The notes under the pieces were generated by a model, which had not been told where the DNA came from, ran no database searches, and worked only from the letters and a program-made list of their open reading frames with translations. A program made the position numbers and the translations under genes. Shown piece after piece: positions 6,173 to 62,353 of a DNA stretch of 64,000 bases (position 1 is the first letter of the stretch; every line of letters starts with the position of its first letter). This DNA comes from Octopus sinensis. Taxonomy: Eukaryota. The stretch is from positions 1 through 64,000 of the forward strand of contig NW_021835690.1 in assembly GCF_006345805.1 (NCBI RefSeq). The letters are read 5' to 3'.

Positions 6173-6244
6173 AATCTCGAACTCGAGTTTTACTAATTAT
6201 TGCCAAATAATCTAATTTGGAATCTGTAGATCATCAGCGGGATT
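6173..6244 (-). ncRNA. Degenerate type I hammerhead ribozyme motif
   Basis: Minus strand aatcccg-CTGATGA-tcta...tagt-AAAA-ctcgag-TT-cgagatt. Stem I pairs 6/7, stem III is palindromic, GAAA is mutated. Confidence 0.5.
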
Positions 6245-6770
6245 GCTAATTAATGAATACCGAAAACATGCACAAGACAGCTACATCTTTATCCATTATG
6301 GATTCGAACTTAGTGCGTGAGCTTCATGAATTCTTTTGCTCATATCAATGAGAGGGGACCGGTACGCAATGATGCCGTCGAGAGGTAGGCCCCGAAACAC
6401 CGTGCATTCTCTCCTGATGACCTCATATACTTGCTAGCTTCCAGTATGCGGGTCTTTCGACTGGTAGCAGCACTTGTATGTGCAAGTATTTTGCGAAACA
6501 TATATATATATATATATATATATATATATATATATATATATATATATGTATGTATGTTTGTATGTATGTATGTATGTATGTATGTATGTTGTATGTATGT
6601 ATGTATGTATGTAATAGATAAATAGATAGATAGATAGATAGATAGATGATAAATAGATAAATAGATAGATAGATAGATAGATAGATAGATAGATAGATGA
6701 TAGATAGATAGAAAGATAGATAGATAGATAGATAGATAGATGATAGATAGATAGATAGATAGATAGATAT

Positions 6771-7426
6771 GTTTCTTTATTAGCCACACAGGGCTGCACA
6801 CAGATAGAACAAATTACAAGGTAGAGCTTTTCTTTTGGGGGTAAAAAAAGGAGAGTGGTGGTTTTCGATCAAAAGGGATCGTAAAAGGAAAGAAAAAGGA
6901 CAAAAAAAAGGGGAGGGGTTAAAAAAAAGGGGGGGAGAGAAAAAAAATGAATAATAGGGATCGTTATCACAGAAATGTCAATATGAAGTGTAAAGGGGAG
7001 GACAGGTGAGGTTTACCCGTGGAAAGAAAAGCCTACGGAAAAGACCACGGTAACCTCGGTCAATGAAGTCACATGTTATATTTCTTTTTTTTTTTTGCAA
7101 ATAAGCACTCTCTGTATTAATTTTTATGGTTCATAGAATCATAGTCAAGTGGCTTCGTCATTCATACGTGCCATCCTTGCTACATTCACCCATCTTTTTT
7201 TAAAACATTCACTAGACAAAACTTGCCTCTCTACTCTCACTTTCCTCTTCAAGTGATACTTGAAGAAGTTGATGAGAGATTGACCAGAGAGAAAAGTGTT
7301 TGTCTCTAATCCTTTCAGGCGCGTCCACCAGATACATTCTTTCGCCATAGCCACAAGTATGATAAAAATAGCTCTTCCTTCCCGTTTGAAGGAAGGAGGC
7401 GTGACGATATTAACGATAGACTCGGC
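6771..7426 (-). mobile_element. 5'-truncated Tx1/L1-clade LINE (ORF2 C-terminus plus 3' UTR) inserted in (GATA)n
   Basis: The unique part of ORF 7145-7687(-) reads ..ILVAMAKECIWWTRLKG..FFKYHLKRKVRVERQ..KRW, an AKxxIWxxR-type ORF2 tail. The 3' end is GCAGCCCTGTGTGGCTAATAAAGAAAC, with (GATA)n on both sides. Confidence 0.75.
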
Positions 7427-8244
7427 TAGATAGATAGATAGATAGATAGATAGATAGATAGATAGATAGATAGATAGATAGATAGATAGATAGATAGATA
7501 GATAGATGATAGATAGATAGATAGATAGATAGATAGATAGATAGATAGATAGATGATAGATAGATAGATAGATAGATAGATAGATAGATAGATAGATAGA
7601 TAGATAGATAGATAGATAGATGAATAAAATAAAGTAAAGATTAACAGAGTCAAAAGAAAGAGTAAGTACGGTTAGGCAGCTTTTCAAATGTTTCGATACA
7701 TATAGATCTACGTATACTCTTACTCTTTACTCTTTTACTTGTTTCAGTCATGTGACTGCGGCCATGCTGGAGCACCGCCTTTAACATACCTTTAACGTAT
7801 ATATGCAGGATTTAAATTTAAATTCCAATTTAATTCGAATTAAATCAGGTAACGATTTACCTGTATAATACGATCTATACGTATCTCCTCGGGCGATATT
7901 TAATCACTGTTTACGCAAGTAAATCTTAATTTCAATGCTCTTCATCTATGGCTCCTTTGAAACTAACAAACGCTAACGGTTTCAGTCCGCTCTCTATGAG
8001 TGTGTTATTACACGTTCGACATGAGCGACAATGTGCACGGTGTCTGCTTATTTAGTTTCACGTGGTATTCTGCACAGGCCAAATTGTATTATTACGGAAA
8101 ATGCACACATCCATTAGCTCATACTTATACGATCGCTTACACACCAACATACCAGCTGTTGTATTCATGGTTCCTTAGAATTTTCTGCTGCTGGATTTCG
8201 GCTCCATTCCATTGCAGCTATACAACAAGTTGGGGTTCCCCATG

Positions 8245-8500
8245 TGTCTGTATGTGTGTGTGTGTCTGTGTGTCTGTGCGTCTGTGTCTGTGTATCTGTG
8301 TGTGTTTGTCTGTGTGTCTGTGTGTCTGTGTGTGTCTGTGTGTGTCCGTCTGTGTGTCTGTGTGTCTCTGTGTGTCTCTGTGTGTATGTGTCTGTGTGTG
8401 TCTGTGTCTGTGTGTGTGTGTGTGTGTGTGTGTGTGTGTGTGTGTGTGTGTGTGTGTGTGTGTGGTGTGTGTGTGTGTGTGTGTGTGTGTGTGTGTGTTT
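8245..8500. repeat. (GT)n/(GTCT)n microsatellite
   Basis: Directly visible. Confidence 0.95.
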
Positions 8501-59139: not shown

Positions 59140-60110
59140 TGTGTTAGGGTAAGGGCGGAAAAGGCCTTAACGATGAAGGTAAGTCTGGCATCGTCAAGGA
59201 AAGTGTTAAAGGCACCTCTCTTCATGTCATTGCGGAGACGTTAGGTCGTCATATGGACACGGTTAGACGATTCCTGACGGACCATTCGCAAGGAAGAAAC
59301 GATCCGATTGTGAGACCTCCAAGACTGGGACAGCTATGGATTTAAGGAATATTGGCCGCAAGTTACCTGGGAAACCTGGACAAACAAGCAAAGCCTCCGG
59401 TCTTCCTCACGTACCGAAAACCACCAGAAATCACATTCTCGGGACCATGGCTTATGTGTGAGAACCCCTGAAACGGCCTTCTTTAACGCCCTATCACAGG
59501 AGTTTGGGGCTTTAATCTGGGCTCAAAAGTACATGGCGTTAAACATTAGGTGTGTTCTGTTCACTGACGAAACCAGAGTGACCTTTGACGGACCTGACGG
59601 TTGGGCAGATGGTTGAGGCTATTTTAGAGATGAGCGTCACCAACGTTTACGCCATCAACAACAAGGTCATGTTGTGGACTGTTGTCATTGAGGACAGACT
59701 TTTGGGCCCAGTCAGGGTGCCTGAAGGGGTTAAAGTGACTGCAGCCGCCTACTGCAATCTCCTGAAGGGGGCTAGGTGACATACCGCTGTCACTTCTAAG
59801 GAATCTCGTATTCATGCACGACAACGCTCCCTCCCACTCTGCTAAGATCACCGAAACATTACTAGGGTCTTACAGCATACAAGGTGAAAGGTTGATGGTG
59901 TGGTCGCCAGCATCTCTGGATCTCATCCCTACAGAAGATCTTTGGTCTATCATTAAACAAGATGTTTATGACGATGGACACCAGTTTACGTTGAAGGATG
60001 TCTTGTGGGCGACCATCAAAGCTGCAGCAGAGGCAGTCCAACCAAGCAAGTTGACAGATTTCATGACTAAATGTAACGAAATAGTTTGTTATGTCAATAA
60101 ATGTTATAAT
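59140..60110 (+). pseudogene. Tc1-family DD34E transposase pseudogene
   Basis: VLFTDETRVTFDGPDGW (~59553-59605), FMHDNAPSH and WSPASLDLIPTEDLWSIIK; multiple frameshifts. Confidence 0.85.
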
Positions 60111-60146
60111 ATCATTATGGTTGCCTGTTAAATATATACTCAATGT

Positions 60147-60510
60147 GGATGGAAGCACTCCGTCGATTACGACGATGAGGGCTCCGAATCAACGGAACAG
60201 CCTGCTCGTGAAATTAACGTGTAAGTGGCTGAGCACTCCACAGACACGTGTACCCTTAATGTAGTTCTCGGGGATATTCAGCGTGACACAGAGAGTGACA
60301 AGGCCGGCCCCTTGAAATACAGGTACAACAGAAACAGGAAATAAGAGTAAGAGAAAGTTGTGGTGAAAGAGTACAGCAGGGATCACCACCCCCTGCCGGA
60401 GCCACGTGGAGCTTTTAGGTGTTTTTGCTCAATAAACACTCACAACGCCCGGTCTGGGAATCGAAACCGCGATCCTATGACCGCGAGTCCGCTGCCCTAA
60501 CCACTCGGCC
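60147..60510 (-). mobile_element. SINE family C with 11 bp TSD
   Basis: Minus head GGCCGAGTGGTTAGG..GGTTTCGATTCCC; ATACTCAATGT at 60136-60146 and 60511-60521. Confidence 0.88.
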
Positions 60511-62259
60511 ATACTCAATGTATTCTTAATGCGTATCATCACCCTTCATTTTCTGAGAAAAAATGTTTAAATGGGTTATATTCATTCAAAAGCTGTTGGA
60601 GTGGTTCACCCAAAAACTAAAGAATCTGAAATTAGAAAGAAAGGTCGTTACACAGAATAAGGAATACATTGAGTATATATAAACATCTTTATAATTATAA
60701 CTGACAATTCTGAATATTTTCAGTCTTTCTTCAACAGAAAACCATAATATTATAACATTTATTGACATAACGAACTATCTTCGCAAGCATTGTTTATGAT
60801 TATTGTTGTTGTTGTTGTTGTTATTGTCGCTGTCGTCGACGCTGTTGTTCTCTTGTCCACACGCTCCCAATGAAGATAGCATTTTCAGTTCTTTTCTACT
60901 TTCAACTCTTGTGACGTGAAGCGTATGTATGTATTGCAGAATATTATATGATCCATTCAATTTGCTTGACTATATCGACATAACCTCTGTTTTGTAGTTA
61001 ATTCTTAAGTAGTTTAGTAGCAGACAGAATGTTCGTTGAATGTATTCGTTCAGCGGATTGTTAATTTACGATTTAATAAGGCTTCGTTGAAATACACAAG
61101 TTGGAAATCCTACCTGATCTTCAATCTTCACTGGTATAGTGTCCATAATCCGTGATGTCTAACAATATGAAAAACGCAGATCACCTGTGAATACATAATA
61201 GGGTATGTAAAGAGATGTTAGAAATTATTTTTTTTATCTAGTAATGTAGCAACATACTTTCTTTCACGTGAATCCCAAGATGTTTAAATACATTAAGATG
61301 TTGCAATTGAGTTCCAGCTAAATAATCATGCTTTTCAAATCTCCATCAACATGTATCCTAAATATTTTCCTGGTGTTTCTCCTTCTTTCTTTGAGTCACT
61401 CCAAAAATAAGTTATCTTTAGAAAACATAAAATCGGAGATTCATCTATTCTGACAGAACTGCATATTCCATTTGGAGTTAGTGAAGATGAAGAAATGCGA
61501 AAACTTCCTTTATCATCTCAATAGAGTCAACGTTAAATAACAGAATTGAGAGGAGACGAACACTCGAACGATTCTGGAAGTTGCGGGATTAATATATTTC
61601 TTTCATTTTACGTTATGCATATATGCCGTAAGAATCGGATGTACAGGCTTTGTGACGGATCAACTTTAATGGATATATGTATTTATGTATGTATGTCATT
61701 ATTCAGTTTTATTTCAAGGTTTCTTGCCAATAGAGAAAGAAGTGGTTTCTAAACTTGATCTATACATACTCAGGCATAACGGGTGAGATCCAGAAATGCT
61801 GAGCATAGTAGTAGTGCTTAAATGACTTGAACTTACACACTGAAATCTATATCGAGGACTTAGGTTCGCGGTATAGATATATACATGTAAATATATATAT
61901 ATGCATGTATGTATATGTATGCATACATACATATATATAGATGTATGTATGTCTATGTATATATACATACATACACACACACACACACAACACACACACA
62001 CACACCACACACACACACACACACACACACACATATATATATATATATACATGTGTGTGTGTATATATATAGGGATATACAAAGACTGAAAATATTCAGA
62101 ATTATCAAGTATAATTTTTTTTTTCTTGTTTCAGCTCAGAGCTGCGGCCATGCTGATGCACCGCCGATAGATGTTTATATAGTTATATATTTATAACAGA
62201 GACTTACATGAAGTACAAACAGTACAGAAAGCTAAGATAAGGGAGCTTGACATTTCGAG

Positions 62260-62353
62260 TCCGACAGCTGTTTCTGGGAGCTCAGAATTTCAAAAATAAA
62301 TGATATTTGATGCATATAACCATCACCGTAAAACCGGCCTCCGTCTTCAGGGT
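62260..62353 (-). ncRNA. Type I hammerhead motif, intact core, weak stem I
   Basis: Minus strand acc-CTGAAGA-cggag...ctccca-GAAA-cagctg-TC-gga. Confidence 0.65.

What the first reader, a model, noticed from the sequence alone, without database searches (positions are those of the whole stretch)
6173..62353. Dense and diverse set of hammerhead ribozyme motifs, mostly in (TA)n-embedded inserts
Seen: type I motifs (stem I - CTGANGA - stem II - GAAA - palindromic stem III - TH - stem I) at 12354, 16576, 38046, 51059/51794, 56475/56943/57211 and 62260 with intact cores. Degenerate ones lie at 6173, 14381, 34885, 35814 and 54514, and half motifs at 11940 and 22538. The stems differ between loci while pairing is kept, implying at least 11 distinct families in 64 kb. 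Known: Penelope-like element pLTRs carry minimal hammerheads with palindromic stem III that are proposed to cleave as dimers. Inference: most of the apparently unique (TA)n-flanked inserts here are PLE termini from a large radiation favouring TA tracts. Several have long stem II insertions of roughly 50-70 nt.
Basis: partly seen in the sequence, partly recalled or inferred. Interest (0 to 1): 0.72.

Follow-up and report, generated by a model that had tools for sequence, protein, structure and literature searches.

The report
Penelope ends and hammerhead retrozymes
This stretch of animal DNA holds about 13 different hammerhead RNA motifs, predicted to cut their own RNA where intact, at the ends of jumping-element copies lying mostly in TA repeats: two families are tails of protein-coding Penelope-like elements, and six are protein-free repeats that are likely copied by the same kind of enzyme.

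Summary
All motifs sit at the stated coordinates; 9 pass a relaxed type I scan against a mean of 0.19 in shuffles. They are not unique: each of the 10 families searched cleanly is a genome-wide repeat.

Two families (14381, 51059/51794) are 3' ends of Hydra-clade Penelope-like elements (PLEs) with RT plus endonuclease ORFs; intact 708-aa relatives exist. Six (12354, 16576, 34885, 35814, 38046, 57211) are closed, ORF-less 334-513-nt units, one arrayed at least 27 times: non-LTR-retrozyme-like, with PLE-type insertion anatomy.

Two motifs called degenerate are fixed family variants: 35814 has the U3-A8 covariation, 54514 has C4. Head-to-head insertions pair one short with one long end in 53 of 54 cases, and their two arms share one template lineage. 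Core-to-core spacers reach 47-68 nt (about 114 in one family), against at most 26 in published Hydra hammerheads.

Cleavage and circular RNA were not testable. Both element kinds and (TA)n targeting are published, and this scan noted the same system many times in this and other genomes. New variant of a known kind.

The parts
5961..6330 (-). Family F6 insert; decayed type I hammerhead 6173-6244 (G12 lost, one stem I mismatch). One relative locus shows a 472-nt tandem unit with an inverted arm
6340..6495 (+). 3' end of an RLE-type LINE joined head-to-head, without a TA tract, to the 5' end of the F6 insert; holds a CUGAUGA that is not part of a type I hammerhead
11820..12068 (+). Family F11 head-to-head stub between TA tracts; only the 3' half of a hammerhead on each arm (11940-11957 +, 11856-11873 -); long tail on the + arm. 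Parent not identified
12129..12756 (-). Family F12, ORF-less unit of about 480 nt with an inverted short-end arm; hammerhead 12354-12454, 68-nt spacer, 10-nt palindromic stem III
14277..14540 (-). Family F14, head-to-head stub of a Hydra-clade PLE 3' end; hammerhead 14381-14443 decayed at G12, intact 3' half on the inverted arm at 14483
16385..16665 (-). Family F16, 5'-truncated copy of an ORF-less unit of about 440-460 nt; hammerhead 16575-16654, 47-nt spacer, extra A before G12
22329..22790 (+). Family F22 head-to-head stub between TA tracts; 3' halves of a hammerhead at 22538-22554 (+) and 22474-22491 (-). Parent not identified
34613..35100 (+). Family F34, slightly more than one ORF-less unit of about 435 nt; hammerhead 34884-34957 decayed at C11.1 and G12
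35610..35870 (-). Family F35, ORF-less unit of 334-355 nt inserted in AT-rich DNA, not in (TA)n; canonical-looking type I hammerhead 35804-35863 with U3-A8 covariation and a 6-nt loop 2
37780..38810 (-). Family F38, partial tandem of an ORF-less unit of about 508 nt plus an inverted short-end arm; intact hammerhead 38046-38104 and a 5'-truncated second one near 38573
51021..51980 (+). Family F51, head-to-head 3' ends of a Hydra-clade PLE with a long non-coding 3' region; hammerheads 51794-51871 (+) and 51059-51136 (-), 51-nt spacer, A-C mismatch at 10.1-11.1
54400..54618 (-). Family F54, short copy ending in (TA)n; minimal hammerhead 54514-54548 with C4, one extra nt after A9 and a loop-less stem III. 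Parent not identified
56326..57517 (.). Family F57, young ORF-less unit of about 480 nt: partial tandem on - plus an arm on +; intact hammerheads 56474-56517 (-), 56942-56985 (-), 57210-57253 (+)
62140..62450 (-). Family F62, old element (best relatives 75-80% identical over most matches); hammerhead-like motif 62261-62354 with a 2-bp stem I; spacer 69 nt here, about 114 nt in relatives. Parent not identified

Best explanation
These are the 3' ends of retroposed copies of about 13 hammerhead-bearing repeat families: two are Hydra-clade Penelope-like retrotransposons, and six are protein-free tandem units of the non-LTR retrozyme kind that are likely mobilised in trans by such Penelope enzymes. 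Inferred cycle: (1) A more-than-unit copy is transcribed. (2) The hammerheads likely cut the multimer, helped by pairing of palindromic stems III or by protein, giving monomers and probably circles. (3) A Hydra-type RT plus GIY-YIG endonuclease likely cuts a (TA)n tract and starts reverse transcription inside the RNA, at one of two fixed sites 60-115 nt apart, downstream of the hammerhead. (4) When both cut strands are extended on the same template lineage, a head-to-head insertion with one short and one long end results; 5' truncation leaves the stubs seen here. Shown: motifs, repeat families, ORF linkage for two families, closed ORF-less units for six, fixed ends at (TA)n, the short/long rule, shared template lineage. 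Inferred: cleavage, circles, which enzyme moves which unit, double priming. F35 inserts in AT-rich DNA and is likely moved by a different PLE clade. F6 looks like a seventh short unit on one locus; F11, F22, F54 and F62 are unassigned.
For: Motif excess over shuffles. Genome-wide repeats: 142-2985 first-look candidates per family (lower bounds, not copy numbers). F14: its hammerhead follows the endonuclease ORF on the same strand with no TA tract between in 23 of 29 loci; intact 708-aa ORFs in L277-L279 carry RWK, DKT, CxCX5C, CxxC and CxH, the Hydra diagnostics of PMC8557442 section 11; the model (pLDDT 93.7) matches telomerase RTs (6 of the top 10 PDB rows). F51: 736-aa open RT plus endonuclease frame upstream in L120. 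Short units: head-to-tail junctions in 58 of 122 loci against 0 of 45 for F14 and F51; longest ATG frame 26-43 aa and circular fold z -2.7 to -5.6 in 5 units; F57 arrays of at least 27 and 11 units. Ends: two sharp modes per family; 53 of 54 head-to-head insertions are short+long, none short+short or long+long. Arms of one insertion differ by 2.9% against 5.7% between loci (41 of 50 closer). Compensatory changes between subfamilies in F38 stem I and in the F12 10.1-11.1 pair.
Against: No cleavage or circular RNA was observed. No short unit shows BLAST-level homology to the three Hydra elements compared (F16 and F35 units were not in that comparison), so the driver is assigned by insertion anatomy only. 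Only 12-25 best-matching loci per family were read, so a rare coding parent of a short unit could be missed. In vitro, the Poseidon enzyme showed no difference in start site between the two strands, and hammerhead mutants did not block insertion (PMC11167929). Minimal PLE hammerheads cleave poorly in vitro (PMC4209133). Several families lack the 10.1-11.1 pair, and U4C lowers activity in vitro (PMC3088659). Predicted monomer folds often pair CUGA with stem III instead of forming the active junction. Queries for several families included the long end, which biases one arm of each pair.
Confidence: 0.8

Rival explanations
1. All inserts are termini (pLTRs) of autonomous PLEs; the short tandem units are occasional deletion products.
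For: True for F14 and F51. Identical insertion anatomy in all families. In one tandem F54 locus the tail runs into a short peptide that recalls a Neptune ORF start (motif recalled, not tested).
Against: In six families the long end runs straight into the next unit at a fixed distance in 58 of 122 loci, and no same-strand PLE ORF lies upstream without a TA tract between. F57 forms arrays of at least 27 units without an ORF.
Confidence: 0.12
2. The short/long rule arises from one priming event followed by fold-back of the cDNA and endonuclease resolution at the short site, not from two priming events.
For: Arms share a template lineage. Several junctions are near-perfect palindromes. Short ends lie at AT-rich, target-like sequence. 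PMC8557442 ascribes the tail to endonuclease-mediated resolution.
Against: In vitro the tail lies between two observed RT start sites and both strands are extended (PMC11167929). Arms often hold different tandem numbers and complex junctions. Some arms are joined to another element without a TA tract (L013; window 6340-6495).
Confidence: 0.35
3. The hammerheads are mostly inactive passengers, and the short units spread as satellite-like DNA by recombination in TA tracts.
For: Long F57 arrays exist. Many copies are decayed. Hammerhead activity is dispensable for insertion in vitro.
Against: Dispersed copies end at fixed internal points, are 5'-truncated and carry inversions, as retroposed copies do. 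About 20 further unrelated families in the flanks keep the whole fold with different stems. Compensatory stem and core changes.
Confidence: 0.06

Closest known systems
Hydra clade of C-terminal EN+ Penelope-like elements, nearest Hydra-1_Obim of Octopus bimaculoides (Craig et al. 2021, PMC8557442; passages, section 11, supplement search hits, Files S1 Hydra sheet and S2)
   Same: Single ORF of about 700 aa with RWK, DKT, CxCX5C, CxxC and CxH; (TA)n targeting; 3' type I hammerhead with palindromic stem III; partial tandems, 5' inversions, tail at one end. The L279 ORF is colinear with Hydra-1_Obim by eye. Mismatches at the base of stem II occur in File S2.
   Different: Different families and hammerheads. 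Tails are 61-71 nt in F14 and F51 against 30-40 bp described for PLEs. F51 has about 2.3 kb of non-coding 3' sequence and a 51-nt spacer (at most 26 nt among Hydra rows of File S2; two plant PLE-X rows are similarly long). A young F14 sister family has C4 in 31 of 32 motifs.
Metazoan non-LTR retrozymes (Cervera and de la Pena 2020, PMC7229834, parts 2-3 of 6; Li, Clavereau and Pollet 2026, bioRxiv 10.64898/2026.07.22.740005, part 1 of 5 and passages)
   Same: Non-coding tandem units with one type I hammerhead each, GC under 50%, self-paired predicted circles, monomers to long arrays; proposed to depend on or derive from PLEs.
   Different: Five of six units are 434-513 nt, near or above the 150-450 bp range given. 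Many families coexist in one genome. Most copies are dispersed in (TA)n with fixed ends and head-to-head arms, a PLE signature not described in the parts read. Circular RNA is not shown here.
Minimal PLE hammerheads (Cervera and de la Pena 2014, PMC4209133; parts 1-2 of 4)
   Same: F54 fits: extra nt after A9, G10.1-C11.1, no loop III. The U3-A8 variant is reported there for a Schistosoma PLE, as in F35.
   Different: The other families have 6-10-nt palindromic stems III and spacers of 12-114 nt.
Poseidon element PAc (Frangieh et al. 2024, PMC11167929; passages)
   Same: Two internal RT start sites that define the tail; both target strands cut and extended; protein-assisted hammerhead.
   Different: No strand difference in start site was seen in vitro, whereas genomic insertions here pair one short with one long end in 53 of 54 cases.

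Membership tests
Type I hammerhead ribozyme | Core CUGANGA, GAAA, UH in type I order | tested here: met
   Intact in F12, F16, F38, F51 (2), F57 (3), F62; fixed variants in F35 (U3-A8) and F54 (C4); broken in the window copies of F6, F14, F34
Type I hammerhead ribozyme | Stems I, II and III around the core, beyond chance | tested here: met
   4 strict and 9 relaxed motifs against shuffle means of at most 0.01 and 0.19; F62 has only a 2-bp stem I
Type I hammerhead ribozyme | Paired 10.1-11.1 at the base of stem II | tested here: inconclusive
   Paired in F38, F57, F35, F54 and in the families F34 and F12; unpaired or bulged as a family trait in F16, F51, F62, F14
Type I hammerhead ribozyme | Rfam hammerhead model at gathering score | tested here: not met
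   3 loci scanned singly: F35 HH9 34.5 bits (E 1.8e-7), F57 HH9 16.6 bits, F38 none; gathering 52. No hammerhead among the 150 of 251 rows shown for the whole window
Type I hammerhead ribozyme | Site-specific self-cleavage | not testable with these tools
   Needs transcription assays
Hydra-clade PLE (F14, F51) | TERT-like RT with C-terminal GIY-YIG-type endonuclease in one ORF | tested here: met
   708-aa ORFs in L277-L279 and a 736-aa frame in L120; fold matches TERT. Pfam found no family in these ORFs; the endonuclease is assigned by motif
Hydra-clade PLE (F14, F51) | RWK, DKT, CxCX5C, CxxC, CxH motifs | tested here: met
   All five in L279; four in L120, which is 5'-truncated before RWK
Hydra-clade PLE (F14, F51) | Insertion in (TA)n, 3' hammerhead, tail at one end | tested here: met
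Hydra-clade PLE (F14, F51) | Generally under 3 kb | tested here: inconclusive
   F14 sister elements about 2.6 kb; F51 over 4.5 kb because of its long 3' region
Hydra-clade PLE (F14, F51) | Position in an RT phylogeny of PLE clades | not tested
   No tree was built; assignment rests on motifs and a by-eye comparison with Hydra-1_Obim
Non-LTR retrozyme (F12, F16, F34, F35, F38, F57) | Tandem unit with one type I hammerhead per unit | tested here: met
   Junctions in 58 of 122 loci; periods 334-513 nt
Non-LTR retrozyme (F12, F16, F34, F35, F38, F57) | No protein-coding capacity, GC under 50% | tested here: met
   F57, F38, F12, F34 (and F6): longest ATG frame 26-43 aa, GC 0.29-0.35; F16 and F35 units were not folded or ORF-scanned as circles, but no linked PLE ORF was found
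Non-LTR retrozyme (F12, F16, F34, F35, F38, F57) | Highly self-paired monomer circle | tested here: met
   z -4.4 (F57), -4.7 (F38), -5.6 (F12), -2.7 (F34), -4.0 (F6), 40 shuffles each, 58-66% paired
Non-LTR retrozyme (F12, F16, F34, F35, F38, F57) | Abundant circular RNA in vivo | not testable with these tools
   Only assembled contigs were available
Non-LTR retrozyme (F12, F16, F34, F35, F38, F57) | Target-site duplications | tested here: inconclusive
   Not discernible inside (TA)n
Minimal PLE hammerhead (PMC4209133) | Extra nt after A9, G10.1-C11.1, no loop III | tested here: inconclusive
   Met by F54 only; not by the other families
Naiad PLE | N-terminal endonuclease, no canonical hammerhead | tested here: not met
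   Linked ORFs have a C-terminal endonuclease; a Naiad-like RT was seen only as a neighbour (L107)
Type-SGC permuted hammerhead (PMC10085705) | [quoted passage not shown] | tested here: not met
   No window motif passes; the 6340-6495 family has stems I and III but no stem II

The most novel reading that the evidence does not exclude
This genome hosts a radiation of dozens of ORF-less hammerhead circles that hijack Hydra-clade Penelope enzymes. Each head-to-head insertion records an asymmetric RT dimer priming the two cut target strands at two different fixed sites of one template. The long-armed and core-variant hammerheads (U3-A8, C4, open 10.1-11.1) are active, protein- or dimer-assisted ribozymes that standard descriptors miss.
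Probability: 0.35. Interest if true: 0.65.

Novelty: new variant of a known kind. Interest (0 to 1): 0.42.

Why it matters
How non-LTR retrozymes move, and how PLEs make their inverted, tailed insertions, are open questions. Here protein-free hammerhead units show the same target, fixed ends and inversions as coding Hydra elements in the same genome. That is genomic support for trans-mobilisation, and it names defined templates, start sites and an intact candidate enzyme for an in vitro test. The short/long rule is a quantitative constraint on PLE integration. Long stem II and variant cores mean hammerhead counts in such genomes are probably underestimated. None of this is a new kind of system.

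Tried and rejected
Rfam on the whole window: dominated by microsatellite-driven miRNA matches; no hammerhead among the 150 of 251 rows shown.

Pfam and PDB sequence searches found nothing for the Hydra ORFs; only the structure model gave the RT match.

Expression: no RNA holder listed. 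Contigs of three runs guessed to be RNA and one large run of unstated kind cover the F57 unit and its head-to-tail joint; this fits genomic tandems as well as circles and is not used as evidence.

The CUGAUGA at 6414 (+) was tested as a type-SGC hammerhead. Its family has stems I and III but no stem II; five metagenome relatives diverge right after the heptamer, and CUGAU can pair with an upstream hairpin loop instead. Rejected.

Two independent RNAs drawn from the family pool as the source of the two arms: disfavoured. Naiad origin: rejected for the linked ORFs.

The F6 search was swamped by the LINE fragment and gave one F6 relative. F11 and F22 were not searched genome-wide; only relatives in loci already fetched were used. 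F34 and F54 gave no usable head-to-head pairs (the F34 query lacked the long end). In one search the F14 cleavage offset was set 9 nt early; differences between ends are unaffected.

Literature searches returned no paper on cephalopod retrozymes or on a short/long pairing rule. The library lacks most subscription journals and Repbase, and the bioRxiv supplements were not seen.

Full report
Setting. The window is G000:C12161:1-64000 of a 2.72-Gb genome, 35% GC, with 40 clusters of (TA)n. The nearest described relative of the coding elements is from Octopus bimaculoides, so the host is likely an octopod; I did not pursue this.

1. Observation. All listed motifs are at the stated places. A strict type I descriptor finds 4 motifs; none of 200 shuffles reaches that. 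A relaxed descriptor finds 9, against means of 0.19 and 0.18 and a maximum of 2. Alignments of 12-25 genomic relatives per family separate decay from family traits. The window copies at 6173, 14381 and 34885 have lost G12. The copy at 12354 has lost the 10.1-11.1 pair. In contrast, 35814 carries UUGAUAA in 14 of 15 loci, the compensatory U3-A8 core reported as natural and active (PMC3088659, passages; PMC4209133), and matches Rfam HH9 at E=1.8e-7. 54514 carries C4 in 17 of 20 loci. F16, F51, F62 and F14 have a mismatch or bulge at the base of stem II throughout the family; such mismatches also occur in published Hydra hammerheads (File S2). Subfamilies show two-sided changes in F38 stem I and in the F12 10.1-11.1 pair. 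Spacers between the core halves are 47, 51 and 68 nt in F16, F51 and F12, and 114-116 nt in 7 of 11 F62 rows, against at most 26 nt in the Hydra rows of File S2. No BLAST hit joined different families among the 11 compared, although by eye F6, F12, F16, F22, F34 and F38 share a short motif in their tails.

2. Two families are ends of coding PLEs. F51 extends upstream through about 2.3 kb of shared low-complexity sequence into a 736-aa open frame (L120). F14 extends through a 3' UTR into an endonuclease frame (L225). A protein search with that piece gave 150 scored matches at 88% identity or more, and an F14-like hammerhead follows the ORF on the same strand, without a TA tract between, in 23 of 29 loci. 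L277-L279 hold intact 708-aa ORFs of a young sister family, 79-86% alike to F14 in the terminal repeat, and L279 shows terminal repeat, ORF, terminal repeat. The proteins carry the motifs that define the Hydra clade in PMC8557442 section 11. They belong to a large family of proteins of about 700 aa (1048 hits). The model (mean pLDDT 93.7) matches telomerase and other RTs. Hydra elements are published as inserting in (TA)n and carrying hammerheads, one of them in an octopus.

3. Six families are closed, ORF-less units. In F38, F12, F16, F34, F35 and F57 the long end runs directly into the next unit at a fixed distance in 12 of 25, 10 of 25, 6 of 25, 15 of 20, 7 of 15 and 8 of 12 loci (58 of 122); F14 and F51 never do (0 of 45). 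No same-strand PLE ORF lies upstream of these units without an intervening TA tract within the 1.5 kb read. Periods are about 480 (F57), 508 (F38), 480 (F12), 435 (F34), 437-458 (F16) and 334-355 nt (F35). F57 forms arrays of at least 27 and 11 units. Folded as circles, five units are 2.7-5.6 SD more stable than shuffles; the single F54 tandem unit is not (z -1.6). This is the anatomy of non-LTR retrozymes (PMC7229834), which a 2026 preprint derives from PLE termini. F6 looks the same on one relative locus. F11, F22, F54 and F62 remain unassigned. F35 ends in AT-rich DNA, with only 3 TA-abutting ends in 15 loci.

4. Insertion anatomy. In F38, F12, F16, F51, F14 and F57 the TA-abutting ends fall at two sharp positions 90, 90, 73, 71, 61 and about 114 nt apart. 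Of 54 head-to-head insertions, three of them the window's own, 53 have one short and one long end; the remaining one has a long end and an odd end (binomial p 3e-15 against 0.5; the queries favoured one long end in several families). The two arms are closer to each other than to arms elsewhere (2.9% against 5.7%, CpG masked, 41 of 50, Wilcoxon p 2e-9), so both come from one template lineage; gene conversion between arms could add to this. A tail at one end only is described for PLEs, and in vitro the tail lies between two RT start sites, with both strands extended. That work saw no strand difference in start site and no need for hammerhead cleavage. Double priming is therefore my preferred but unproven reading; cDNA fold-back with endonuclease resolution is the rival. 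In L013, F57 units are joined without a TA tract to a Hydra endonuclease fragment with its own UTR and hammerhead: a single observation that fits shared machinery.

5. Scale. First-look candidates run from 142 to 2985 per family (lower bounds). The flanks of the fetched loci (about 1.0 Mb, partly overlapping and biased to TA-rich spots) hold 28 further motif strings at the higher score, one an obvious low-complexity artefact, about 20 families by eye, against 1-2 expected by chance; several have U3-A8 or C4 cores or 48-61-nt spacers. Family matches cover about 7 kb of the window.

6. Dimer question. Every stem III is palindromic, and the isolated palindromes are predicted to pair as duplexes (-1.7 to -15.1 kcal/mol) and not as hairpins. 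Only F54 cannot close a loop at all. Dimer cleavage needs two same-sense copies, which partial tandems (F38 and F57 in the window) supply and head-to-head stubs do not.

7. Earlier notes of this scan. I had the Hydra link, the short units and the short/long rule before looking. The notes show the same system on many other windows of this and other genomes. They led me to Hydra-1_Obim in the supplement and to the type-SGC test. They are not counted as support.

Verdict. Real and far above chance; a mix of Hydra-clade PLE ends and retrozyme-like non-autonomous units. The kinds are known; the large units, long tails and arms, variant cores and the short/long rule make it a new variant. Interest 0.42.

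Noticed in passing
window 6340-6495 (+); L207-L224; L282-L286: 3' UTR of an RLE-type LINE with a structured block conserved in five metagenome loci. It holds both hammerhead core words in S-G-C order with stems I and III but no stem II; probably a pseudoknot. Function unknown.
   Followed up: partly
L032, L240, L275 (outside the window): A repeat family with a candidate type-SGC permuted hammerhead: 6-bp stem I, 5-bp stem III, 4-bp stem II set off by 2 nt from G12. Probably the family of earlier notes e1-8664462 and e1-9040678.
   Followed up: no
L248-L281: A young coding Hydra family with intact ORFs has CCGAAGA (U4C) in 31 of 32 hammerhead motifs, a change reported to lower activity in vitro.
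   Followed up: partly
window 3403-3889 (+) and 23492-23626 (+): Broken relics of Hydra-type endonuclease and RT frames; no hammerhead seen behind them.
   Followed up: partly
window 36510-36573 and 46837-46901: A fragment of the F35 unit is carried inside another abundant repeat whose end recalls a Helitron-like element (label recalled).
   Followed up: no
L013:3130-4720; L120 (5' end of the ORF): Chimeric junctions without a TA tract: F57 units joined to a third Hydra family, and an F14 stub joined to the F51 ORF.
   Followed up: partly
window 17451-18689 (+) and 19791-21026 (+): Open frames like ORF1 of non-LTR retrotransposons; a weak zinc-knuckle match in the first (PF00098, E 5e-4).
   Followed up: no
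window 15570-15749, 42560-42976, 41028-41357, 59314-60131: Fragments that look like an RLE-LINE end beside a (TAA)n tract, an RT-linked fragment and two transposase relics (by eye, labels recalled; the three scanned had no Pfam match).
   Followed up: no
window 46966-47542: Two 278-nt tandem units separated and flanked by (TA)n, AT-rich, no hammerhead found.
   Followed up: no
window 2892-2963 (-): tRNA-like match just above the Rfam gathering score (31.3 bits), possibly the head of a SINE.
   Followed up: no
window 9423-10495 and 33074-33561: Inverted repeats of 132 and 204 nt not related to the hammerhead families; the second is a pair of a common SINE-like repeat.
   Followed up: no
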